Shown: piece after piece, positions 4,797 through 20,345 of the stretch
Position numbering within the stretch: position 1 is the stretch's first letter
How the letters are laid out: each line of letters opens with the position of its first letter
Sequence record: SRR16203515_1307
DNA: 43,844 nucleotides
Strand: one strand, 5' to 3'
Notes under the pieces: model-generated
What the model saw: the letters and a program-made list of their open reading frames with translations, nothing else
Told to the model about the DNA's origin: nothing
The model's database searches: none
Position numbers and translations under genes: made by a program

Positions 4797-4824
4797 TCTC
4801 AAAAGCTATCAATTTCAGATACCT

Positions 4825-4853
4825 AAAAAGCCAACATACTTGTTGGCTTTTTT
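4825..4853. terminator. Bidirectional intrinsic terminator after zapE
   Basis: AAAAA-GCCAACA-tact-TGTTGGC-TTTTTT between convergent genes. Confidence 0.85.
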
Positions 4854-4875
4854 ATGACTTACTCTTGACCAGAAA

Positions 4876-5172
4876 CTAATTGTCTACTCCCCAATCGAGA
4901 TCGATATCCGCTTCTATCTCTCTTTCGATAATTTCACGTTCTATTTCTCGACGAACAATTTCATCTTCAATAATACGATTCTCAAGTTGATTGCAATAGG
5001 CGTCTCGCGACATATTACCCGTAGAAAAACCATCGCATGGGCGATGATAGCCACCACCTCCATGGTAAATGGTTGAACCGCCCGACGCGTTGCCATTTCC
5101 TGAGCTTGCACAACCCGTTAAAGTAAGTATGCTCACCATTGATAAAAAAGCTAAATGTTTGAAAGTAAACAT
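4876..5172 (-). CDS. Small hypothetical lipoprotein (98 aa) with acidic repeat C-terminus
   Basis: ATG at 5172 gives MFTFKHLAFLSMVSILTLTG-C (lipobox LTGC), a Gly/Ser linker, two more Cys and an E/I/R repeat tail; purine-rich RBS upstream. Confidence 0.75.
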   Translation of the reverse strand: MFTFKHLAFLSMVSILTLTGCASSGNGNASGGSTIYHGGGGYHRPCDGFSTGNMSRDAYCNQLENRIIEDEIVRREIEREIIEREIEADIDLDWGVDN

Positions 5173-5283
5173 AACGTTCCCCTGTATCTCTAATGACAAT
5201 GCTCGCCAGAACTTAATTCCGCACTTTAGCAAGTGACAAACTTAGCAATTGCCTTTACACTTTTTTAAGCTTTGACTCACTTA

Positions 5284-5721
5284 TTAATCCCAGTCGTAGT
5301 CCAAATCATCTTCAATTTCGCGAATGGCTATTTCGTCGTCAATTACTCCCATATCAAGTTCATCTTCCAAATCTTGTCGAATGATCTCATCTTCTATATC
5401 TCTGCGGTCAAGTTCGTCTTCGATATCACTATCGATGTATACATCTTCTAAGTCGCGTATGTCACGACGACAGCGGTCAGCTTGAATAGAGCCTTCAACT
5501 AGTCCATCGATAGCGCCAACCGAACCACCTATTGCAGCGCCACGTTTTGCGCCTTGCTTGCCGTCAACGATGCCGCCAACAATTGCGCCTGCTACTGCGC
5601 CTTCAACGCCACCAACAACTGTGTCGGCAAGTACATCATCACAGTAGTCGCTCGCCATAGAAGGAGCGTTCAACATACTTGTGCTTAAAAGACCTGCAAT
5701 AATTAATGATTTATTTTTCAT
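5284..5721 (-). CDS. Secreted glycine-zipper protein with acidic repeat C-terminus
   Basis: Signal peptide ending PSMA, GxxxG repeats (GGVEGAVAGAIVGG...GAAIGGSVGAIDG), D/E-rich tail. Confidence 0.8.
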   Translation of the reverse strand: MKNKSLIIAGLLSTSMLNAPSMASDYCDDVLADTVVGGVEGAVAGAIVGGIVDGKQGAKRGAAIGGSVGAIDGLVEGSIQADRCRRDIRDLEDVYIDSDIEDELDRRDIEDEIIRQDLEDELDMGVIDDEIAIREIEDDLDYDWD

Positions 5722-6008
5722 AATAATCCCTAAGATTGATATTGTTGTTGGGGAGTCATTACCAAATCAAACTCACCAACTTTAAAGATGAGGTCAGTAT
5801 AGAGATCGTAAAAATTTAAGCTGTTGAAGTTTGTTAAAAAAATGTTGTAAAAATGTACACTTTTTATCTTGTTGATATATATAAAATAAATAAAAGATAT
5901 TTTACTCAAGCAATGCGCAGGTGACAGAAAGTTACAACTGTAGAGGGCTATTTTTTACTGAAGGTGTTAAAAAGTCATTTTATGAATAGGTCAGCTATCT
6001 ATCGTAAG

Positions 6009-11208: not shown

Positions 11209-12075
11209 TTGTCTGTGCCCTGTTTGTCCGCCTTGTGCGAGAAAATAACAGTGAATCACCCAAAATCCCAAGCATCGCTACTATCGGTAGAGCAACTTAG
11301 TTGGTCAACTGAGAATAACGCGATCCTGTCTGATATTGGGTTCAACGTCCCACACGGCAGTTTTACGGGGATTTTAGGGCCTAATGGCGCGGGAAAATCA
11401 ACGCTATTAAGATGTTTGTATCGTTATTTAGAGCCTGACAGTGGCTCCATTACATTTGACGGTCAAGACATAAGTGAATTCACGGCCAATGACTACGCCA
11501 AAAAGGTCGCCGTAGTATTACAAGAAACCCCATCACACTTTAATTTAACGTTACACGATGTTGTTGCACTTGGCTTGATCCCGCATAAAGGTATTTTCAC
11601 ACGAGCAAGTGAAAGTGATCGTGAGAAAATCGCTCAAGCTATTGAACAAGTTGGCTTAAGCCACAAAGAAAAACAAAGCTTCGAGCATTTATCCGGCGGT
11701 GAAAAGCAACGAGCATTGATAGCACGTGCGATTGTGCAATCTCCTAAATTGTTGATCATGGATGAACCAACCAGTCATCTCGATGTTCGGTATCAAATTC
11801 AAATTATGGAATTGGCTAAATCACTCGATATCACCGTGATAGCCTCGTTTCATGACCTAAATCTAGCCAGTGCAATGTGCGATAACTTACTTGTACTTGC
11901 AGAGGGCAAGCTAGTTGCTCAAGGCAATCCTAATGAGGTGATAACGACCGATATGTTGTCAGATGTTTTTGGTGTCTGCGCGCAAATAACCGAACACCAT
12001 CAACATAAAGTGCCGCATATTTCTTATTATTACGGTTACATGGAACAGCACAAAAAGGAGATTGATGGTGTTTAG
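11209..12075 (+). CDS. Cobalamin/iron-chelate ABC transporter ATP-binding protein (BtuD-like)
   Basis: GPNGAGKST, LSGGEKQR, MDEPT; true start may be GTG 11251; under a B12 riboswitch. Confidence 0.88.
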   Translation: MSVPCLSALCEKITVNHPKSQASLLSVEQLSWSTENNAILSDIGFNVPHGSFTGILGPNGAGKSTLLRCLYRYLEPDSGSITFDGQDISEFTANDYAKKVAVVLQETPSHFNLTLHDVVALGLIPHKGIFTRASESDREKIAQAIEQVGLSHKEKQSFEHLSGGEKQRALIARAIVQSPKLLIMDEPTSHLDVRYQIQIMELAKSLDITVIASFHDLNLASAMCDNLLVLAEGKLVAQGNPNEVITTDMLSDVFGVCAQITEHHQHKVPHISYYYGYMEQHKKEIDGV

Positions 12076-13093
12076 TCAATCTTCGCTGAATCCACCTATT
12101 ATTATTTCTATCAGTCTTAGTTTGCTGGTATTTAGTTTTTTTTGCGCGCTTTCCTTCGGTGCTGCCAATATTACTTTTGCCGATGTTTGGGCGACCTTTT
12201 ATACTTCGGCGGACGCTGAAAGCGAAACACCAGCGTTTGTTAGTCGAATTATTTGGGAGCTTAGAATGCCTCGTGCGGTTCTTGCTTTCTTAGCGGGGAC
12301 AGGGCTGGCTGTTTCCGGTTTAATTCTTCAAACGGTAACTCGCAATCCACTTGCTGATCCCTACCTTTTTGGTATTTCATCCGGTGCTTCATTGGGCGTG
12401 GTAATTCTTATCGCCTTTACAGGTGGCGTGTTCACAATCATGACACCCGTTGCTGCTTTTATTGGTAGCTTGGTGGCGATGGTCATGCTATTGCTTATTT
12501 CGGCGCGTCGGCAAAGCCAGCAAGTCGAATCTATGTTGCTAGCGGGCGTGGCATTATCATTCTTATTCAGTTCATGTACTAGCTTATTGCTTTATCACAC
12601 AGACCCTCAAGCAGTTACGGCTGTACTTTTTTGGACTATGGGCAGTTTCACGCGCGCGCAGTGGGAGCTTTTGTGGTTTCCTGCGCTTGTTATTACTTCA
12701 TGCATCGTGCTGATGCTGGCGTATCGTCGTCAACTCAATGCGATGCTTTTAGGTGATGAAAGCGCTACGACTTTAGGTATTAAAGTTGGTCGATTTCGTA
12801 TCCTTATGTTGCTATTGAGTTCATTAATCACCGCAACGCTTGTTTCGCTTTGCGGCGGTATCGGATTTGTCGGGTTGATGATCCCACATATTGTGCGTTT
12901 CTTCGTTTCACAAGGGACAGTATTTGGCATTTTATTAACAGCACTTGCTGGCGGTATTTTCATGATTTGGGTCGATATTCTCTCGCGTATCGTGCTAGAA
13001 AATCAGGAGCTGCCGATCGGTGTTATAACGGCAGCAAGTGGCAGCTTGTTCTTCCTAAATCTACTCTATTTTCGCAAAAATAGGCCCAGTTAA
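12062..13093 (+). CDS. FecCD/BtuC-family ABC permease
   Basis: LRMPR, RNPLADPYLFGISSGA, LGDESATTLG, GFVGLMIPH, LPIGVIT. Confidence 0.9.
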   Translation: MMVFSQSSLNPPIIISISLSLLVFSFFCALSFGAANITFADVWATFYTSADAESETPAFVSRIIWELRMPRAVLAFLAGTGLAVSGLILQTVTRNPLADPYLFGISSGASLGVVILIAFTGGVFTIMTPVAAFIGSLVAMVMLLLISARRQSQQVESMLLAGVALSFLFSSCTSLLLYHTDPQAVTAVLFWTMGSFTRAQWELLWFPALVITSCIVLMLAYRRQLNAMLLGDESATTLGIKVGRFRILMLLLSSLITATLVSLCGGIGFVGLMIPHIVRFFVSQGTVFGILLTALAGGIFMIWVDILSRIVLENQELPIGVITAASGSLFFLNLLYFRKNRPS

Positions 13094-13105
13094 ATAAGGT
13101 TTACT

Positions 13106-14164
13106 ATGACATATCACATAGATCCTGTTTCTCACGGAAATGACGAAACTATTCAAGCGACCATTGATGGTAAAACAAAGCCCTTAGGTGCTCTTGGGCA
13201 ACTTGAAGACGTTGCCAAGAATATTGCCCGTGTTCAGTATTTGGCGGAAGGAAATAACACGGAGAATAAACTTGCTATCGAAGCACCTAGCCTGTTTATC
13301 TTTGCTGGCGATCATGGCATTGCCAATGAAGGCGTTTCTATTGCACCCAGTGAAGTAACCGGGCAAATGGTCGCGAACTTCGCCAATGGCGGGGCGGCGA
13401 TTAACGTTTTTTGTCGTCAACTTGGCTGGCAGCTCAATGTTGTTGATGCTGGGATTTTAGAAGCGCCAGCAGAAGAGCTTGGCATTATTAGTCAACGCTT
13501 AGGCAATATCACGCAGCCTTTCAATCAAACAAGTGCAATGTCTATCGAACAAGTTGAATTAGGCTTTGATCTTTCAAGCAAGTTAATTAAGAAAACCAAG
13601 GCGACAGGTTGCAATTTAGTCGCCTTTGGCGAAATGGGCATTGGCAATACAAGCTCTGCTTCAGCTTTGATGTCGGCGTTTTTAGCGCTACCTGCAACAG
13701 AAACTGTTGGAAAAGGCACAGGTGTTTCTGATGACATCGTGTTGAAAAAAATTGAAGTTGTGCAACAAGCGTTAGCACTTCACGCTGAAAATTTAACAGC
13801 TCCAAAAGAAATATTAGCGCGACTTGGCGGACACGAAATCGTGCAAATAACTGGCGCTATGCTCGCAGCAGCCGAGGAAAAAATGCATATCGTTGTTGAC
13901 GGCTTTATTTGTACCGCAGCAGCGATAGCGGCAATTAAAATAAATGCCAATGTTAAAGACTATATGATATTTGCCCATTGCTCAGGCGAACAAGGACATC
14001 AAAAAATGTTAGCGCATTTAGAGGTTACTCCCTTATTAGATCTTGGCCTACGTTTAGGTGAAGGCACAGGCGCAGCCATAGCATTGCCCCTTATTCAAGC
14101 ATCGGTGAATTTCTACAACGAAATGGCGAGCTTTGCTCAAGCGGAAGTGACGAATGTTGTCTAA
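13106..14164 (+). CDS. cobT: Nicotinate-nucleotide--dimethylbenzimidazole phosphoribosyltransferase
   Basis: KTKPLGALGQLE, FAGDHG, GEMGIGNT, LRLGEGTGA. Confidence 0.95.
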   Translation: MTYHIDPVSHGNDETIQATIDGKTKPLGALGQLEDVAKNIARVQYLAEGNNTENKLAIEAPSLFIFAGDHGIANEGVSIAPSEVTGQMVANFANGGAAINVFCRQLGWQLNVVDAGILEAPAEELGIISQRLGNITQPFNQTSAMSIEQVELGFDLSSKLIKKTKATGCNLVAFGEMGIGNTSSASALMSAFLALPATETVGKGTGVSDDIVLKKIEVVQQALALHAENLTAPKEILARLGGHEIVQITGAMLAAAEEKMHIVVDGFICTAAAIAAIKINANVKDYMIFAHCSGEQGHQKMLAHLEVTPLLDLGLRLGEGTGAAIALPLIQASVNFYNEMASFAQAEVTNVV

Positions 14165-14208
14165 GTGCCACATTACCAATGCCGTAATTTCAACTCGGCT
14201 TTTCTGTT

Positions 14209-15060
14209 GTGATGAATATGCGCTTTATGTCGAATAAGTCATCTGCGCCAAATAAGTCTTTTATGCAGACACTCAAAATACAATGGCAACTTGTCTTATT
14301 AGCCTTGAGTTTTTTCACGCGCGTCCCCGTAAAAATGAGCGCTGAAGTTGACAGTGAAATGCTCAACAAAGCGAGTCGGTATTTTGCTTTAATTGGTCTT
14401 TTTGTTGGTCTTGTTTGCGCGTTAGTGTATGCAGTTTCTCTTGAAGTTTTTCCGAAGAATATCGCCATTATTTTAGCGATTGCTGTTGGTGTGTTATTAA
14501 CAGGTGCTTTTCATGAAGACGGTTGGGCAGATGTTTGGGATGGTTTCGGCGGTGGCTGGACAGTTGAGCAAAAGCTAAACATCATGAAAGATAGTCGATT
14601 AGGCACTTATGGTGCAGCATCTTTATTTCTTATTTTGGCATTGAAGTTTTATGGTTTGTTAGCGCTTGCTTCGCCTGTTTTAGCTTTAATTTTAGGTCAT
14701 ACGCTAAGTCGAGTTGTCGCGACTAGCCTTATTTTCGACATGGCTTATGTAGCTGAAGACGCTACGTCAAAGGCAAAGCCCCTTGCACAAACGTTATCAA
14801 ATCGCAGCCTAATGATCTTGTTACTAACAGGCGCTCTGGTGCTCTTTCTCAGTGTAGAAATTACACTCGCCATTGTACTCATAGCGATATTAATAGTGAC
14901 AAGAACGGTGCTGAAATTTTGGTTCACTAACCAGTTAGGTGGCTATACTGGCGATTGTTTAGGCGCGGCGCAACAGGCAACTGAAGTGGTTATTTATCTG
15001 TCGCTAATTGCACTCACAAACCAAGTCACAATTGATGCGCTTATTGGGAGTGGTTGGTGA
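14209..15060 (+). CDS. cobS: Adenosylcobinamide-GDP ribazoletransferase (cobalamin synthase)
   Basis: FFTRVP, TGAFHEDGWADVWDG, IMKDSRLGTYG, GGYTGDCLGA; start uncertain. Confidence 0.95.
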   Translation: MMNMRFMSNKSSAPNKSFMQTLKIQWQLVLLALSFFTRVPVKMSAEVDSEMLNKASRYFALIGLFVGLVCALVYAVSLEVFPKNIAIILAIAVGVLLTGAFHEDGWADVWDGFGGGWTVEQKLNIMKDSRLGTYGAASLFLILALKFYGLLALASPVLALILGHTLSRVVATSLIFDMAYVAEDATSKAKPLAQTLSNRSLMILLLTGALVLFLSVEITLAIVLIAILIVTRTVLKFWFTNQLGGYTGDCLGAAQQATEVVIYLSLIALTNQVTIDALIGSGW

Positions 15061-15755
15061 GTAAATCTATCAATAAAAGTACAAGCAATATTGCCTCAAT
15101 GATGAGTGATATTCACTTAATTATTGGCGGTGCTCGTTCAGGGAAGAGTCGGTTAGCTGAAAACCAAGCGCAAGCATTTGAACAGCAACATGCAAACGCC
15201 AAAGTGTCTTATGTCGCAACAGCACAAGCGTTAGATAACGAAATGTCAGAAAGGATCGCAAAACACCAATCGCAAAGACCAAACCATTGGCATTTGATTG
15301 AAGCGCCAAGGCATTTAGCTCAATCGCTTTCAGGGCTCGTTAAAGATAATGACCAGCCACACTGTATTTTGGTTGACTGTTTAACACTGTGGCTGAGTAA
15401 CGCAGTTTGTGACGAAAATGATGAAACATGGCCTACAGAAAAAGCACAATTGTTAACGTTTATAGAAACGTTTCAAAGCTCATTTAATAACAGCTCTGCT
15501 AACGAAATCCGAGCGGCTAAACCGCCAGTAAAAATTATTCTAGTCAGCAACGAAGTAGGCCACGGCATCGTGCCGATGGGCGAGCTTTCGCGGAACTTCG
15601 TTGATCAGGCAGGGTGGTTACATCAAGCACTTGCAGAAAAAGCAGAACGGGTTGATTTTGTCATGGCCGGTATTGCGCTGCCGCTTAAAGCACCTAAAGA
15701 ATTGAGCTTGTCAGTTGAATCGACAGGTACGAAACAAGCAAAGGATACAAAATGA
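15054..15755 (+). CDS. cobU: Bifunctional adenosylcobinamide kinase/phosphate guanylyltransferase
   Basis: [34 protein letters not shown]; start may be about 45 nt later. Confidence 0.95.
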
Positions 15756-17305
15756 AAACCTTAATGGTGCAGGGCACTACATCAGACGCTGGAAAAAGTA
15801 CTTTGGTTGCTGGATTGTGCCGTGTATTTGCAGACAAAGGTTATTCTGTTGCACCTTTCAAACCGCAAAATATGGCGTTGAATAGCGCTGTAACTGAAGA
15901 CGGCGGCGAAATTGGGCGTGCACAGGCTTTACAGGCGGTTGCTGCAAGGGTCCCTTTGAGTGTTCACTTTAACCCCATTTTGTTAAAACCTAATAGTGAT
16001 ACCGGCGCTCAGGTAATTGTGCATGGCAAAGCCTTATCAAACATGGAAGCCGACAGCTACCACGACTATAAAAAGGTCGCGATGGATGCAGTACTCAAAT
16101 CTCATCAAAAACTGAGTGAAAGCTTTGACATTTTAATGGTTGAAGGCGCGGGTAGCCCAGCTGAAATTAACCTTCGAGAAAATGATATTGCCAATATGGG
16201 CTATGCAGAAGAGGTAGATTGCCCTGTCATAATTGTTGCCGATATCGATAAAGGTGGCGTATTTGCACATCTAGTAGGTACGCTCGAATTACTCTCACCG
16301 TCAGAGCAAAACCGCGTTAAAGGCTTTGTTATAAATAGATTTCGTGGTGATATCAAACTACTCGAGTCTGGCTTGGATTGGTTAGAACAAAGAACCGGAA
16401 AGCCCGTGCTTGGAGTTCTACCTTATTTGCATGACTTAGCCTTAGATGCAGAAGACGCTATCGCCATTGATAACAAAGTGGACGACAAACAAATATCGAT
16501 AGTCGTGCCGCTATTCCCTCACATTAGCAATCACACTGATTTTGATGCACTTAGACTTCACCCCCAGATTGACCTACGCTATGTTCGAATTGGCGAGCGC
16601 ATCGGTCACGCTGACTTAATCATTTTGCCAGGCAGTAAAAACGTCATTAGTGACTTAGCGTTTTTAAAAGGACAAGGATGGCAAACGGAGATTGAAAAGC
16701 ACCTCAGGTATGGTGGAAAAGTGCTTGGTATTTGTGGCGGGTTTCAAATGTTAGGTATGCAAATTTCAGATCCAGACAATATTGAATCAAGCGCTATCAA
16801 TGGCTTATCTAATACCGTAGAAGGGCTAGCACTTGCTGATTTTACAACGATACTCACGCCTGAAAAAACCTTAACTCAGGTAGCAGGAAAAATAACGCTT
16901 TCGAATAAAACGGGCGATATCAAAGGTTACGAAATTCATTGTGGTGTTTCTACTGGACCAGCTTTAATTCAGCCGTTGGTAACGAGTTTAACGACCAACG
17001 AACAAAATACGAATAACACACTTAGCAATAAACAAAATATCGATGGGTTCGTCTCTGAAGATGAACAAATTGCAGGCACCTATGTGCATGGTCTTTTTGA
17101 CAGTGCTGCGGTCACTAAATTGGTGCTTGATTGGGTAGCCCCTAATAACTCGGTATATGAAGCAATCGACATTGATGAGCACCGTGAAATACAACTTAAT
17201 CGTTTAGCGAAAGTGTGCAATCAACATATGGATATCGACAAAATAGCCGCAATTCTCACACAAGGTATGGATGCGGGTACTAAGCAACAAACGGTAAACC
17301 GATGA
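15752..17305 (+). CDS. cobQ: Cobyric acid synthase
   Basis: [52 protein letters not shown]. Confidence 0.95.
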
Positions 17306-17343
17306 TGATTTCAAAAACTGATATATGCCTAACAAGGATTTTT

Positions 17344-18222
17344 ATGAAGAAGTTAAACGTTGCCAAAGCTGCACTGATTAAATTCGGGGTGTTAATGCTC
17401 ATGTGCAGCATAGGTGTTACTAGCAACGCCGTCGCAGAGGAGCAAGGGGAAAAACAAGCTAATGATATGCGAATTGTTGCGCTAGCCCCTCATATTGTAG
17501 AAATGCTTTTTGATATTGGTGTTGGCGACAAAATAGTTGGCGCGGTGGAGTATTCTGATCACCCAGAAGCTGCACTCGACATTCCACGTGTCGGCGGTTA
17601 TCACGGTATGAAGATTGAAAAAATCTTAGAGCTTCAGCCAGATCTAGTCATTGCATGGCAGTCTGGTAATCAAGTTTCAGACATTGAAAAAATGCAGAAA
17701 TTAGGGCTGAAAGTGGTATTTAGTAACCCTAGCGATATTGCCGATGTGGCTAAAGAACTTCGCTATTTCGGCTCGCTTACGGGTAGTGATGTCGCCGCTG
17801 AAAAAGCAGCGACCCAGTATGAAAATGACTTAACAGCAATTCGAGAAAAACATAAAAACAGTAAACCTGTACCTGTGTTTTATCAGCTTTGGCCGGAGCC
17901 AATGATGACGATAAATAAAGAAACGTGGATAAATCAGCTTATCGAAATTTGTCAGGGGCAAAATGTCTTTGGAGATAACCCAACCGCTTACCCCAAAATT
18001 GGTATTGAAAATGTCATAGTCGCCCAACCTGAAGTTATTGTGATGCCAAATGAGCGTTCTGATAAAGAACAGCCCGTAATCGATTGGAGCAAATGGCCAG
18101 AAATTCCAGCGGTAAAAAACGACCGCTTTGTCCGTGTAAACGCAGATTTGTTGCACCGTTTTTCAACCCGCATGTTAAAGGGCGTGGAAGACTTGTGCAC
18201 AAAAATTGATGCTGTCCGTTAG
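17344..18222 (+). CDS. btuF: Periplasmic cobalamin-binding protein
   Basis: Signal peptide, RIVALAPHIVE, EYSDHP, EKILELQPDLV; ATG 17344 follows AAGGA (ORF is open from 17302). Confidence 0.88.
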   Translation: MKKLNVAKAALIKFGVLMLMCSIGVTSNAVAEEQGEKQANDMRIVALAPHIVEMLFDIGVGDKIVGAVEYSDHPEAALDIPRVGGYHGMKIEKILELQPDLVIAWQSGNQVSDIEKMQKLGLKVVFSNPSDIADVAKELRYFGSLTGSDVAAEKAATQYENDLTAIREKHKNSKPVPVFYQLWPEPMMTINKETWINQLIEICQGQNVFGDNPTAYPKIGIENVIVAQPEVIVMPNERSDKEQPVIDWSKWPEIPAVKNDRFVRVNADLLHRFSTRMLKGVEDLCTKIDAVR

Positions 18223-18269
18223 GCAGTATCCTTAAAAAAGAACCGATAGAATAATTCTATCAATATATG

Positions 18270-18455
18270 TCAGGTAGATTGGGGAAACCGATGAAAGTTT
18301 GGTACTGCCCCCGCAACGGTAATTTACATGTTTGTATGTAATTAGTCCGACACCCAACACCTGATTAATTGTCGCTTTGGCACTTAAATTAAACACTTAA
18401 ACAAGTGAAGCAAAGGCTTAAAAGCGAACAACATGGAGCGGTGGGCTTCATAGAG
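18270..18455 (+). ncRNA. Cobalamin riboswitch 2 (btuB leader)
   Basis: GGGGAA-ACCGA-TGAAAG-TTTGGT-ACTGCCCCCGCAACGGT core, AGTCCGA-CACCC; P1 TCAGGT/ACCTGA; P13 ATGGAGCGGTGGGCTTCAT directly before the SD. Confidence 0.9.
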
Positions 18456-18464
18456 AGAGGTAAC

Positions 18465-20345
18465 ATGAAAACACAAACATCAAACAAAACATTTAACAAA
18501 AAACTAGCTCATCTTGCGGTAGCTGCGGCAATAACGACAACATTTGCATCCTCATCATCTGTAGCTTTTGAAGCAACGGCAGAGGAAGCGATTGAAAACA
18601 TCGTTGTTACTGCGAACAGAACGCCACAAGATCAATTCTTAGCGCTTTCTTCGACGCATGTGATTACATCTGAAGAAATCACTGCTTTACAACCACAAAA
18701 TATCGGCGAGCTTTTAGAGCGTGTTGCTGGCGTTAGCGTTGCAACACTTGGCGGTCCAGGTCAATCTACATCGGTATATTTACGTGGTACTAACAGCAAC
18801 CATACTTTAGTTTTGGTTGACGGCGTACGTGTAAGTTCTGCCACTTTAGGTTCAACAAACTTCTCTTCTATGTCTGTTGGTCAAGTACAGCGTGTTGAAA
18901 TCGTTAAAGGCCCACGTGCGGCTCTTTGGGGGTCTGACGCGATTGGTGGCGTTATTCAAATATTTACTAAGAAACTAGATAACGGTGAAGGAAATGTCGC
19001 TGCTGGTTTTGGTAGCTTTGGATTCTGGAAAACTGAAGGTTCGGTAGGTTTCGGTAACGAAAAACATAACCTGACGTTGGCAGGTTCTCTTGAAGAGAGT
19101 AAAGGTTTTAACGTTTCAGAGTTTGACGGTCAAGAAGACAAAGACGGATACAACCGTCGCGCTATTAGTGCTGTAGGTAACAGCCAATTTACTGATGAAA
19201 TTTCAGGACAATTAGTCGGTCGCTACGAAAAAGGCGGTGCAGAGTATGATACTAAGTGGGCAGGCAGTGCCGACGAGAATGAATATGAAAACTACTCTGC
19301 CAAATTAGGCAGCCAATACAAATCTGATGCTATTTATGCTGAAGTAAGTGTAGCTACTATGAAAGACCAAGGCGGCACGTTTGTTAGTGACGACAAGGCA
19401 AATTCGCTTTCAGAAATCACCACTAAACGTAACCAATTCGGTTTGTTAGGTCAGTACATGTTTTCTGACGACACAAGTGCTACCGCTGGTTTTGATTGGT
19501 ACAAAGAAAAAGTATCGGCTGGCGATCTTGATAGCTGGACACCAGGCAACCAATCGTGGTCAAAAGATTCTCGTACAACAAAAGCGTTTTACGTTTTAGG
19601 TCGTCATCAAATGAATAGCTTTTTATTCGAAGGTGCTGTTCGTCGTGACGATATTCAAGGACTTGATGCAGAAACCACATACAATTTATCAGTAGGTTAT
19701 CAACTAAATGCTGATTGGTTAGTAAGTGCTAGCCGAGGTACAGGTTTTAAAGCGCCTACGTTTAACGACCTATACTGGCCTGGTTCAGGTAACCCACTAC
19801 TTAAACCTGAAAAAGTAGAAAGCAACGAAGTGCTTGTTCGCGGTCAGTTAGAAAACGCTGATATCGAGGTAAGCGTTTATGATTCTAAAATTGAAGATTT
19901 AATTGCATGGGCACCTGACGCTTCTGGCGCTTGGAGACCAATGAATATCAACCAAGCTGACATTCAAGGCATAGAGTTCACAGGCAATTATTACATTGGT
20001 GATTGGTCACATAACTTAGCAGCTACTTATGTGAAGACTGAAGATAAAAGCACAGGCAAAGAGCTTCTTCGTCGTCCTAAAGTTTCTGCAAACTATACGT
20101 TAGGTTATCAAGTAGGCGCTCTTACAGCTAACGCGACACTGAGATACCGTGGCGAAAGCATGGACGCAGGCGATGTGAAGTTAGCAAGTTCAGTTTTAAC
20201 TGACTTGTCGCTAAGTTATGAAGCAACTAATAGCCTGACGGTTATCGGTAAAGTGAACAACTTATTCGATAAAGACTACAAAATGGCTGAAGGTTACAAA
20301 ACGGCTGGTATTAACTACCAAGTAACGGCTGCTTACGCGTTCTAA
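18465..20345 (+). CDS. btuB: TonB-dependent vitamin B12 receptor
   Basis: TonB box ENIVVTANR, plug LRGTNSNHTLVLVDG, GFKAPTFNDLYWP, NLFDKDY, terminal F; ATG 18465 after GAGAGG. Confidence 0.92.
   Translation: MKTQTSNKTFNKKLAHLAVAAAITTTFASSSSVAFEATAEEAIENIVVTANRTPQDQFLALSSTHVITSEEITALQPQNIGELLERVAGVSVATLGGPGQSTSVYLRGTNSNHTLVLVDGVRVSSATLGSTNFSSMSVGQVQRVEIVKGPRAALWGSDAIGGVIQIFTKKLDNGEGNVAAGFGSFGFWKTEGSVGFGNEKHNLTLAGSLEESKGFNVSEFDGQEDKDGYNRRAISAVGNSQFTDEISGQLVGRYEKGGAEYDTKWAGSADENEYENYSAKLGSQYKSDAIYAEVSVATMKDQGGTFVSDDKANSLSEITTKRNQFGLLGQYMFSDDTSATAGFDWYKEKVSAGDLDSWTPGNQSWSKDSRTTKAFYVLGRHQMNSFLFEGAVRRDDIQGLDAETTYNLSVGYQLNADWLVSASRGTGFKAPTFNDLYWPGSGNPLLKPEKVESNEVLVRGQLENADIEVSVYDSKIEDLIAWAPDASGAWRPMNINQADIQGIEFTGNYYIGDWSHNLAATYVKTEDKSTGKELLRRPKVSANYTLGYQVGALTANATLRYRGESMDAGDVKLASSVLTDLSLSYEATNSLTVIGKVNNLFDKDYKMAEGYKTAGINYQVTAAYAF

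What the first reader, a model, noticed from the sequence alone, without database searches (positions are those of the whole stretch)
4876..5721. Tandem glycine-zipper protein and lipoprotein share an acidic 9-residue repeat tail ending in DW
Seen in sequence: the 145-aa secreted protein ends in six nonads, DLEDVYIDS/DIEDELDRR/DIEDEIIRQ/DLEDELDMG/VIDDEIAIR/EIEDDLDYD-WD. The adjacent 98-aa lipoprotein has an unrelated N-terminus but ends in three nonads of the same register, IIEDEIVRR/EIEREIIER/EIEADIDLD-W. Both place a Cys pair just before the repeats; in the larger protein the two Cys bracket the GxxxG hairpin. Established: glycine zippers drive membrane oligomerisation, including in two-peptide toxins such as Caulobacter CdzC/D. 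Inference: the two form an envelope module that co-assembles through the shared tail (anchor plus pore or fibre subunit), or a Ca2+/mineral-binding surface system. I do not recognise this repeat from any named family; it is the best candidate here for an undescribed system.
Basis: partly seen in the sequence, partly recalled or inferred. Interest (0 to 1): 0.75.

Follow-up and report, generated by a model that had tools for sequence, protein, structure and literature searches.

The report
Paired envelope proteins sharing acidic tail
Two neighbouring genes of a marine bacterium encode a secreted glycine-zipper protein and a small outer-membrane lipoprotein that share a related, strongly acidic repeat tail found in no named protein family; what the tail does is not known.

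Summary
Gene A (5284-5721, minus strand, 145 aa) has a Sec signal, a glycine-zipper hairpin between two Cys, and a 9-residue-periodic acidic tail. Gene B (4876-5172, minus strand, 98 aa) has a lipobox, a Cys-x13-Cys loop and a similar tail. The tails align better than all 5000 shuffles. Family profiles match at 95.5% probability, so B looks like a lipid-anchored, zipper-less relative of A's C-terminal half. No Pfam or NCBIfam family covers the tail.

Both families are rare and marine. A-type genes occur in Shewanella, Vibrio, Psychromonas-like bacteria and Motilimonas. B-type genes fall into only 10 protein clusters among 5.8 billion.

B was adjacent to A only in this window. In Shewanellaceae the two are unlinked but share genomes (6 of 7 B-bearing genomes also have A; 6 of 12 A-bearing genomes lack B). 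There, 10 of 12 A genes are followed by a POTRA-less Omp85-type barrel.

RNA-library contigs bridge the A-B spacer, a weak hint of co-transcription.

Co-assembly through the tails is plausible but untested (about 0.35). The toxin reading is unlikely. I rate it a new variant of glycine-zipper envelope proteins, of moderate interest.

The parts
5284..5721 (-). Gene A: 145-aa secreted glycine-zipper protein with acidic tail (P0001)
   Evidence: ORF and translation. The family is recovered by an HMMER search of 1.84 billion representatives: 6 hits at E<1e-10.
5653..5721 (-). A residues 1-23: Sec (type I) signal peptide, likely cut after SMA
   Evidence: Read from the translation: K-rich N-terminus, hydrophobic core, A-x-A-like site. 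AF2 predicts helix 4-18. The cleavage site is inferred.
5470..5643 (-). A residues 27-84: GxxxG helical hairpin bracketed by Cys27 and Cys84
   Evidence: Sub-threshold Pfam glycine-zipper hits: PF13436 23.5 bits against a cut-off of 27. 12 of 14 family members hit PF13441. AF2 pLDDT is 74-81 here. Cys84 is nearly invariant. The Cys27 column carries Cys in the 12 full-length family rows; P0018 lacks both Cys and P0014 is cut at its N-terminus. The disulfide is inferred.
5287..5454 (-). A residues 90-145: six acidic nonads D-[IL]-E-D-[ED]-[IL]-x-x-x, then WD
   Evidence: Lag-9 identity 17, reached by 0 of 3000 shuffles. The 61 residues after the last Cys hold 29 D/E and 7 K/R. The hydrophobic period peaks at 80 degrees, i.e. 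4.5 residues. AF2 pLDDT is below 50.
5173..5283 (-). 111-nt A-B spacer with an AGGGGA Shine-Dalgarno-like site before the B start
   Evidence: Sequence. No stable structure: z 0.32. Bridged by RNA-library contigs X3 4897-5404 and X5 5118-5292.
4876..5172 (-). Gene B: 98-aa lipoprotein with acidic tail (P0002)
   Evidence: Translation. Homologues at 98, 79, 65 and 55% identity. 10 clusters with the broadened profile.
5110..5172 (-). B residues 1-21: lipoprotein signal with lipobox LTG|C; Ala at +2
   Evidence: Read from the translation. G20-C21-A22 are invariant in 5 of 5, and C21-A22 in 9 of 9. Outer-membrane sorting is inferred from the absence of Asp at +2 (a rule recalled from E. coli).
4993..5037 (-). 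B residues 46-60: Cys-x13-Cys loop CDGFSTG..RDAYC
   Evidence: C46, D57 and C60 are invariant in 9 of 9. The loop is shortened to C-D-[FL]-x-C in the Shewanella forms. It aligns to A's DGLVEG...RC.
4879..4974 (-). B residues 67-98: three acidic nonads, then W-GVDN
   Evidence: AF2 predicts helix 54-89; pLDDT block means are 64 (residues 51-60), 72 (61-70), 61 (71-80) and 53 (81-90). The hydrophobic period peaks at 78 degrees.
4820..4852 (-). Hairpin plus U-run after B, shared back-to-back with zapE: a likely bidirectional intrinsic terminator
   Evidence: Fold -14.9 kcal/mol, z -3.48; 1 of 200 shuffles folds as well. The consensus scan did not list it.
5772..5775 (-). Possible 5' end of the A(-B) transcript
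   Evidence: RNA-library contigs of two studies stop at 5775 (X3) and 5772 (X5) without loose ends, while DNA run X1 continues to 6000.

Best explanation
A and B are two real envelope proteins of a Colwelliaceae bacterium, probably transcribed together.

A is exported by Sec. It consists of a glycine-zipper helical hairpin, probably closed by a Cys27-Cys84 disulfide, followed by a polyanionic tail of net charge about -22.

B is a lipoprotein, probably sorted to the outer membrane. It is a truncated relative of A: it keeps only a small Cys-closed loop and the same type of tail.

The tail is an undescribed module. It is acidic, Ile/Leu/Val recur every 4.5 residues (two per nonad), and an aromatic residue sits near the C-terminus.

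Inferred mechanism: the tail is a self-association element. B's tail pairs with A's tail and so tethers the lipid-less A hairpin to the inner face of the outer membrane. Together they would form a two-chain counterpart of single-chain glycine-zipper outer-membrane lipoproteins (SlyB, YfgH, OsmB, YiaD), which stabilise the outer membrane and its beta-barrel proteins. A can also work without B, as it does in Vibrio and in half of the A-bearing Shewanellaceae, so B would be an accessory.

Shown: the gene structures, the export signals, tail relatedness, family distribution and the lack of a named family. Inferred: the disulfide, membrane location, tail-tail pairing and the stabilising role.
For: - Tail relatedness: 0 of 5000 shuffles reach the observed score. 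hhalign gives 95.5%, E 1.4e-8, and the match extends into the non-repetitive Cys-loop region.
- The 4.5-residue hydrophobic period is conserved in 13 of 16 A-type and 8 of 8 B-type tails. Power at the 100-degree alpha-helical angle is at most 0.36 in all 24. The pattern is therefore selected, not mere composition.
- The dependence is asymmetric. In 179 Shewanellaceae genomes A-type occurs in 12 and B-type in 7. Six of the 7 B-bearing genomes also have A, and 6 A-bearing genomes lack B. One-sided Fisher p is 1.5e-7, not corrected for kinship. This is the pattern expected of an accessory subunit.
- The window places the two genes 111 nt apart on one strand, with no terminator-like fold between them and a hairpin plus U-run after B. 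RNA-library contigs from two studies bridge the spacer.
- The zipper core hits the Pfam and NCBIfam glycine-zipper outer-membrane lipoprotein models, though below threshold.
- Outer-membrane context elsewhere: 10 of 12 Shewanellaceae A-type genes are followed directly by a 378-401-aa Omp85-superfamily barrel. Pfam was run on the G002 copy alone: PF01103, 35.4 bits against a cut-off of 24.
- The role of glycine-zipper lipoproteins as outer-membrane stabilisers comes from passages of the YfgH preprint 10.64898/2025.12.22.696046.
Against: - No direct evidence of binding exists.
- Adjacency of A and B was seen only in this window and its near-identical strains. 0 of 11 other A-type loci have B beside them. 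In Shewanellaceae the two genes are far apart or on different contigs.
- Tails of the same genome are no more alike than tails of different genomes. Shewanella same-genome pairs give z 1.8, 4.8 and 3.3, while cross-genome pairs reach z 8.2. There is thus no sign of pair-specific co-evolution.
- A's zipper helices carry about nine acidic and several basic residues, which argues against deep membrane insertion.
- AF2 gives the A tail pLDDT below 50, so it may be disordered.
- In one related strain (RNA run X3) all 4 differences in B change the protein, including the ATG start read as ATC, whereas 5 of 9 differences in A are silent.
- The genome-level association may only reflect shared descent within one Shewanella clade.
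Confidence: 0.35

Rival explanations
1. The tails are independent polyanionic cation binders. Each tail binds Ca2+/Mg2+ (or a cationic surface, polyamine or mineral) in the periplasm or at the outer membrane of marine bacteria. A and B resemble each other because they share this job and an ancestor, not because they touch each other.
For: - The 61 residues of A after the last Cys hold 29 D/E; the 38 of B hold 14.
- All organisms found with either family are marine Gammaproteobacteria: Shewanella, Vibrio, Psychromonas-like, Motilimonas and a Colwelliaceae host.
- AF2 gives the A tail low confidence without ligands, as expected of a tail that folds only on binding ions.
- A occurs without B in 6 of 12 Shewanellaceae genomes and in 8 of 8 other A-bearing genomes searched.
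Against: - A pure charge function would not need the strictly conserved 4.5-residue spacing of Ile/Leu/Val or the aromatic residue near the C-terminus.
- No known Ca2+-binding motif (EF-hand, RTX GGxGxDxUx) was hit.
Confidence: 0.25
2. The tail is a recognition or threading signal for an outer-membrane barrel. The acidic tail with its aromatic end would be handled by a POTRA-less Omp85-type barrel (or another beta-barrel), which would expose or anchor A, and B, at the outer membrane or cell surface.
For: - 10 of 12 A-type genes in Shewanellaceae are followed directly by a 378-401-aa Omp85-superfamily gene. Family searches were run on two copies: PF01103 at 35.4 bits against a cut-off of 24 for G002, and NF047779 at E 1.7e-13 and 2.6e-15, below its cut-off, for G002 and G425.
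- Other A-type and B-type loci also have neighbouring ORFs whose C-terminal residues look like those of barrel proteins: the 252-aa ORF in Vibrio and the 279-aa ORF beside P0008. These have no family hit.
- An aromatic residue lies within the last 1-6 residues of nearly all members.
Against: - No Omp85-like gene is found in the 43.8-kb window, and the rest of the genome is not held.
- The function of POTRA-less Omp85 proteins is itself unknown (PMC4104836, one passage; PMC11358297, abstract).
- The barrel-like neighbours outside Shewanella belong to unrelated or unidentified families.
Confidence: 0.15
3. Glycine-zipper toxin plus partner. A would be a membrane-permeabilising glycine-zipper peptide toxin (as in CdzC/CdzD or class II bacteriocins) and B its helper or immunity lipoprotein.
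For: - Weak Pfam hit to Bacteriocin_IIc (E 0.0068, 16.8 bits against a cut-off of 27.1).
- Patchy, rare distribution.
Against: - A has an ordinary Sec signal, not a double-glycine leader or a type I secretion signal.
- Its zipper carries many charged residues, and the mature protein is acidic, not cationic.
- No ABC exporter, HlyD-type adaptor or immunity-like membrane gene lies nearby. The neighbours are zapE, an AraC regulator, an acyl-CoA dehydrogenase and cobalamin salvage genes.
- B is related to A's own tail rather than being a membrane immunity protein.
- The features of the Cdz system used here are recalled, not taken from a call.
Confidence: 0.05
4. No shared function. B is a decaying or fast-evolving fragment copy of an A-type gene, kept by chance next to A.
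For: - In the X3 strain all 4 differences in B are non-synonymous and the start codon is lost.
- The B family is tiny: 10 clusters among 5.8 billion proteins.
Against: - B-type proteins are conserved from 98% down to about 30% identity, with invariant lipobox Cys, loop Cys pair and tail positions in 9 of 9 sequences across Colwelliaceae-like and Shewanella lineages. This indicates purifying selection.
- RNA-library contigs cover B at depth 51.6.
Confidence: 0.1

Closest known systems
Glycine-zipper outer-membrane lipoproteins SlyB, YfgH, OsmB and YiaD (Pfam PF05433 Rick_17kDa_Anti, PF13488, PF13441, PF13436)
   Same: A's core is a GxxxG-rich helical hairpin that hits these models (E 4.8e-5 to 0.013; 12 of 14 family members hit PF13441; NF053611 YiaD, E 3.3e-6). 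It is an exported envelope protein. These lipoproteins are described as oligomerising stabilisers of the outer membrane (passages of preprint 10.64898/2025.12.22.696046).
   Different: A has no lipobox. Its hairpin is bracketed by a conserved Cys pair and is rich in charged residues. It carries a 56-residue acidic periodic tail that none of those families has. All Pfam scores for A are below the gathering cut-offs. The lipid anchor sits on a separate protein, B, which has no zipper.
POTRA-less ('noNterm') Omp85 proteins
   Same: The gene directly downstream of A-type genes in 10 of 12 Shewanellaceae is a 378-401-aa Omp85-superfamily barrel with room for only a short N-terminal region.
   Different: It is not part of this window. 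Its function is unknown in the literature I read (PMC4104836, one passage; PMC11358297, abstract).
RTX nonapeptide Ca2+-binding repeats (GGxGxDxUx)
   Same: A nine-residue repeat rich in Asp, in exported proteins.
   Different: The nonads contain no Gly and have two hydrophobic positions rather than one. No Pfam hit to the RTX repeat family was returned. AF2 predicts helix, not a beta-roll, for B's tail. The RTX consensus is recalled, not taken from a call.
Caulobacter CdzC/CdzD glycine-zipper two-peptide bacteriocin
   Same: Two adjacent small glycine-zipper-related genes (only A has the zipper).
   Different: A and B have Sec and lipoprotein signals instead of type I secretion. No exporter or immunity genes lie nearby. 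The mature proteins are acidic. Details of the Cdz system are recalled, not taken from a call.

Membership tests
Pfam glycine-zipper families (PF13436, PF13441, PF13488, PF05433) | Score at or above the Pfam gathering cut-off | tested here: not met
   P0001 scores 23.5 against 27, 20.1 against 28.9, 16.9 against 25, and 15.8 against 24.2. P0002 has no hit.
Pfam glycine-zipper families (PF13436, PF13441, PF13488, PF05433) | Repeated GxxxG/AxxxG motifs in two consecutive helices | tested here: met
   Read in A residues 37-77. G45, G49, G57, G61, G65, G69, G73 and G77 are invariant or nearly invariant in the family. AF2 predicts helix with pLDDT 74-81.
SlyB/YfgH-type outer-membrane glycine-zipper lipoproteins | Lipobox and glycine zipper on one polypeptide | tested here: not met
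   A has a type I signal and no lipobox. B has the lipobox LTG|C but no zipper.
SlyB/YfgH-type outer-membrane glycine-zipper lipoproteins | Ring-shaped oligomers around lipid and outer-membrane proteins | not testable with these tools
   No usable oligomer model was obtained. This needs cryo-EM or cross-linking.
RTX Ca2+-binding nonapeptide repeats | GGxGxDxUx consensus (recalled) and a match to the Pfam RTX repeat family | tested here: not met
   No Gly in the nonads. No such Pfam family among hits up to E 10, up to 0.01 for the A family, or up to 0.1 for the B family.
CdzC/CdzD-like or class II glycine-zipper bacteriocins | Double-glycine leader or type I secretion signal with a dedicated exporter and immunity gene nearby (recalled) | tested here: not met
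   Sec and lipoprotein signals are read in the sequence. The neighbours contain no such exporter. Bacteriocin_IIc scores 16.8 bits against a cut-off of 27.1.
Proposed family of this report: Cys-flanked acidic 4.5-period tail module | A Cys within about 6 residues upstream; then at least 30 residues with at least 30% D/E; hydrophobic period 4.3-4.7; an aromatic residue near the C-terminus | tested here: met
   Both A and B meet it. The period criterion is met by 13 of 16 A-type and 8 of 8 B-type tails. Profiles match at 95.5%.

The most novel reading that the evidence does not exclude
The acidic 4.5-period tail is a previously undescribed protein-protein tether. Through it, a lipid-less, disulfide-clamped glycine-zipper hairpin (A) is docked to the outer membrane, either by a zipper-less lipoprotein relative (B) or by a POTRA-less Omp85 barrel. 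This would be a split, two-component version of the SlyB/YfgH membrane-stabilising system, specific to marine Gammaproteobacteria, and it would give a first partner and a testable role to POTRA-less Omp85 proteins.
Probability: 0.15. Interest if true: 0.65.

Novelty: new variant of a known kind. Interest (0 to 1): 0.45.

Why it matters
Glycine-zipper envelope proteins are only now being recognised as stress-specific stabilisers of the outer membrane (the SlyB and YfgH work). Their diversity outside E. coli is said to be largely unexplored (YfgH preprint).

This locus defines a small, unannotated branch in which the zipper, the lipid anchor and a distinctive polyanionic tail are spread over separate genes. 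In Shewanella the zipper gene is tied to a POTRA-less Omp85 barrel of unknown function.

If the tail proves to be a tether or a cation-dependent folding element, it would add a new interaction module to envelope biology. It would also give an experimental handle on an orphan Omp85 class. If not, these are still two correctly delimited, expressed, unannotated envelope genes.

Tried and rejected
- Complex prediction of mature A with mature B: 'no answer', score 0.00 in both runs, and the controls were not run. It counts neither for nor against binding. The tool did not use my alignments.
- AF2 monomers: mean pLDDT 60.1 and 56.8. This is too low for fold searches, so none was run.
- Search of solved structures by profile. 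The only hits were a borderline match of the zipper to an OmpA-family chain (6x65_N, E 0.011), TraT (E 0.61), and nothing meaningful for B.
- ESM Atlas. For A, only generic glycine-zipper clusters, all below 0.9. For B, unnamed small lipoprotein clusters at 0.86 or less.
- Synteny. None of 80 zapE loci from Colwellia, Thalassotalea and relatives carries A, B or any small ORF with a similar tail. None carries the window's AraC or acyl-CoA dehydrogenase genes either.
- Pattern scans of species-representative genomes. The scan with P0001 alone found nothing. The scan with the B alignment gave only 3 weak, spurious hits.
- The single metagenome scan returned one contig (L084) in which the region upstream of the B-type gene is cut off. 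Adjacency could not be read there.
- DNA-level similarity between the two tails: none beyond 7-13-base chance words. There is no recent duplication or gene conversion.
- Same-genome tail co-evolution: not seen.
- Sigma-70 consensus scan: 4 sites against 3.3 expected, which is uninformative. I could not assign a convincing promoter by eye upstream of 5775.
- Earlier notes of this scan, searched by place and by sequence: nothing.
- Literature. A search for 'glycine zipper' + 'acidic C-terminal' + 'periplasm' found 0 papers. A search for 'glycine zipper' + 'Omp85' found 8 papers (7 listed), none of them, by title and abstract start, about this family. My statement that the family is not in print rests on these two searches and on the database names only.
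- Parts of the window without cover in the RNA runs are not used as evidence.
Full report
**1. What is in the sequence**

Two ORFs lie head-to-tail on the minus strand. A is 5284-5721 (145 aa, P0001). B is 4876-5172 (98 aa from the ATG, P0002).

A reads as follows:
- a signal peptide, MKNKSLIIAGLLSTSMLNAPSMA;
- then SDYC;
- a GxxxG-rich stretch, residues 37-77;
- ...ADRC (Cys84);
- then RRDIR and six nonads, ending DYDWD.

B reads as follows:
- a lipoprotein signal ending LTG|C, with Ala at +2;
- a Gly/His-rich linker;
- the loop C46-DGFSTGNMSRDAY-C60;
- three nonads;
- then W-GVDN.

The one correction is that B does not end in DW.

A 111-nt spacer separates the genes. It carries an AGGGGA site before B's ATG and has no stable fold (z 0.32).

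After B comes a 12-pair hairpin with a U-run at 4820-4852 (-14.9 kcal/mol, z -3.48). It lies back-to-back with the end of zapE.

**2. Is the tail resemblance more than acidic low complexity?**

Yes.
- The local alignment of the two tails scores 73. Shuffles of both tails give mean 35.7 and maximum 67, and 0 of 5000 reach the observed score.
- Period 9 is strong in A: lag-9 identity 17, reached by 0 of 3000 shuffles.
- Period 9 is present in B by identity (9; 1 of 3000) but not by the hydrophobic measure (367 of 3000).
- Family profiles (7 A-type against 5 B-type rows) match with 95.5% probability, E 1.4e-8, over 52 columns.
- That match includes the non-repetitive stretch before the tail, DGLVEG-x5-RC in A against DGFSTG-x5-YC in B.

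B therefore looks like a relative of the C-terminal half of an A-type protein with a lipoprotein signal in front. There is no DNA-level similarity, so the relationship is old.

**3. The tail pattern**

I took the sequence after the last Cys for 16 A-type and 8 B-type proteins.
- The hydrophobicity spectrum peaks at 76-84 degrees per residue (period 4.3-4.7) in 13 of 16 A-type and 8 of 8 B-type tails.
- Power at 100 degrees, the amphipathic alpha-helix angle, is at most 0.36 in all 24.
- A's tail has 29 D/E and 7 K/R in 61 residues. B's tail has 14 and 5 in 38.
- On an ideal alpha-helix, two hydrophobic positions per nonad (i, i+4, i+9, i+13...) fall on two opposite faces. This is my geometric inference and is not shown.
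- AF2 predicts B's tail as helix 54-89 at modest confidence. It gives A's tail pLDDT below 50.
- An aromatic residue sits within the last few residues in nearly all members.

**4. Families and names**

No Pfam or NCBIfam model covers the tail. A's core hits four glycine-zipper Pfam families, all below their cut-offs. B hits nothing.

*A family.* HMMER over 1.84 billion representatives gave 89 hits at E up to 1e-3. Only 6 are below 1e-10. These 6, P0009-P0014, share the layout signal - YDDYC - zipper - ERCRRD - acidic tail. Most of the remaining sequences I read are generic glycine-zipper proteins.

*B family.* The first search found 4 clusters. A profile widened with the Shewanella forms found 10 clusters among 5.8 billion proteins.

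*Names given by the sources.* These are 'hypothetical protein', 'glycine zipper domain-containing protein' and, once, 'outer membrane lipoprotein SlyB'.

**5. Host and synteny**

- ZapE is at most 83% identical to Colwellia, Thalassotalea and Cognaticolwellia proteins. The host is therefore a Colwelliaceae-type bacterium not among the species representatives. No whole genome is held for it.
- None of 80 related zapE loci has A, B or a similar tail.
- In one relative that I read (L009), zapE is followed by rplM-rpsI-petABC. The window has none of these within 39 kb.
- The AraC and acyl-CoA dehydrogenase genes of the window are absent from all 80 loci. The A-B pair thus sits at a synteny break.
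- In a sample of 401 genomes of the same family, the B profile found 0.
- In the same sample the A profile found 3 weak, zipper-only hits. The one I read is a different glycine-zipper lipoprotein without the tail. The other two lie in 565-aa and 518-aa frames and were not inspected.

**6. Co-occurrence**

*Adjacency.* 11 A-type loci were found among species-representative genomes: 3 Shewanella, 5 Vibrio, 2 Psychromonas-like and Motilimonas. None has a B-type gene beside it.

*Genome level in 179 Shewanellaceae.*
- A-type occurs in 12 genomes and B-type in 7.
- Both occur in 6, B alone in 1, and A alone in 6.
- One-sided Fisher p is 1.5e-7, not corrected for kinship.
- In these genomes the two genes are far apart or on different contigs.

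*Outside Shewanellaceae.* 0 of 5 A-bearing Vibrio genomes and 0 of 3 others have a B-type gene.

*Other observations.*
- One Shewanellaceae genome (G426) has two A-type genes in tandem with different tails.
- Tails from the same genome are not more alike than tails from different genomes.

B thus behaves as an optional companion of A, and adjacency is particular to this lineage.

**7. A recurring neighbour elsewhere**

In 10 of 12 A-bearing Shewanellaceae genomes, the A-type gene is followed directly by a 378-401-aa ORF.
- In the G002 copy this ORF matches the Omp85 superfamily: PF01103, 35.4 bits against a cut-off of 24.
- The G002 and G425 copies match NF047779 at E 1.7e-13 and 2.6e-15, below that model's cut-off.
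- The copies compared are 39-66% identical to one another.
- The ORF is too short for POTRA domains.

The window has no such gene. The literature I read treats POTRA-less Omp85 proteins as of unknown function (PMC4104836, one passage; PMC11358297, abstract).

**8. Expression hints**

Contigs from two metatranscriptome-labelled runs lie on the locus at 95-99% identity.
- X3 covers 4897-5404 (depth 51.6) and 5423-5775 (depth 144.6).
- X5 covers 4979-5179, 5118-5292 and 5533-5772.
- Two of these contigs bridge the A-B spacer.
- The RNA contigs of both studies stop at 5772-5775, whereas DNA run X1 continues to 6000.

By the tool's own cautions these are weak hints. RNA libraries can hold DNA, and a contig across two genes does not prove one transcript.

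In the X3 strain, all 4 differences in B change the protein, including ATG to ATC at the start. In A, 5 of 9 differences are silent. The 111-nt spacer holds 7 differences.

**9. Interpretation**

*Firmly established.*
- There are two real, exported, unannotated envelope proteins.
- They share a related, conserved tail module.
- A has a glycine-zipper core of the kind found in the outer-membrane lipoproteins SlyB, YfgH, OsmB and YiaD. Those proteins are described as oligomerising membrane stabilisers (YfgH preprint, passages).

*Best mechanistic guess (0.35).* The tail is a self-association element, and B tethers A to the outer membrane through it. B is an accessory that A can do without.

*Rivals.*
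- Independent cation-binding tails (0.25).
- The tail as a signal for an outer-membrane barrel (0.15).
- B as a drifting fragment copy (0.10).
- Toxin plus partner (0.05).

- the tails do beat shuffled controls;
- the genes do not co-occur as neighbours elsewhere, but they do co-occur at genome level in one family;
- neither gene falls into a characterised family.

**10. Verdict**

This is a new variant of a known kind, glycine-zipper envelope proteins, carrying an undescribed tail module. The families are small and no function has been shown. Interest is 0.45.

Noticed in passing
L085:5421-6581 and the matching ORFs in L113-L122: A 378-401-aa Omp85-superfamily barrel, too short for POTRA domains, directly follows the A-type gene in 10 of 12 Shewanellaceae genomes. 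This is a conserved two-gene unit that I did not find described.
   Followed up: partly
L123:1369-1938 and L123:2097-2534 (genome G426): Two A-type genes lie in tandem. One has an Arg-containing nonad tail ending EYWD. The other has an almost pure Glu/Ile-Leu tail ending DEWY. A third variant (L124) has an (EEEII)n tail.
   Followed up: no
window 4797-4875 and onward: Synteny break directly after zapE. In the one relative read (L009), zapE is followed by rplM-rpsI-petABC. The window instead has B, A, an AraC-type regulator, an acyl-CoA dehydrogenase and other genes, with no rplM or rpsI within 39 kb.
   Followed up: partly
window 5170-5172: In the RNA-library contig of run X3 (a related strain), B's ATG start reads ATC, and all 4 differences in B change the protein. 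Either B starts elsewhere in that strain or it is decaying there.
   Followed up: partly
window 11209-20345: Cobalamin salvage and uptake cluster on the plus strand: ABC ATPase, FecCD permease, CobT-type phosphoribosyltransferase, CobS, CobU, CobQ, a periplasmic binding protein and a TonB-dependent receptor.
   Followed up: no
L089:5497-6255 (also L090, L092) and L084:595-1434: ORFs of 252 and 279 aa lie next to A-type genes (Vibrio) and a B-type gene (metagenome contig). Their signal peptides and C-terminal residues look like those of barrel proteins. They have no Pfam or NCBIfam hit.
   Followed up: partly
window 5324-5485 (+), 5532-5688 (+): ORFs of 42-53 aa on the strand opposite to gene A, rich in Ser and Arg. 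They mirror A's GA-rich codons, and I take them to be non-coding shadows.
   Followed up: no
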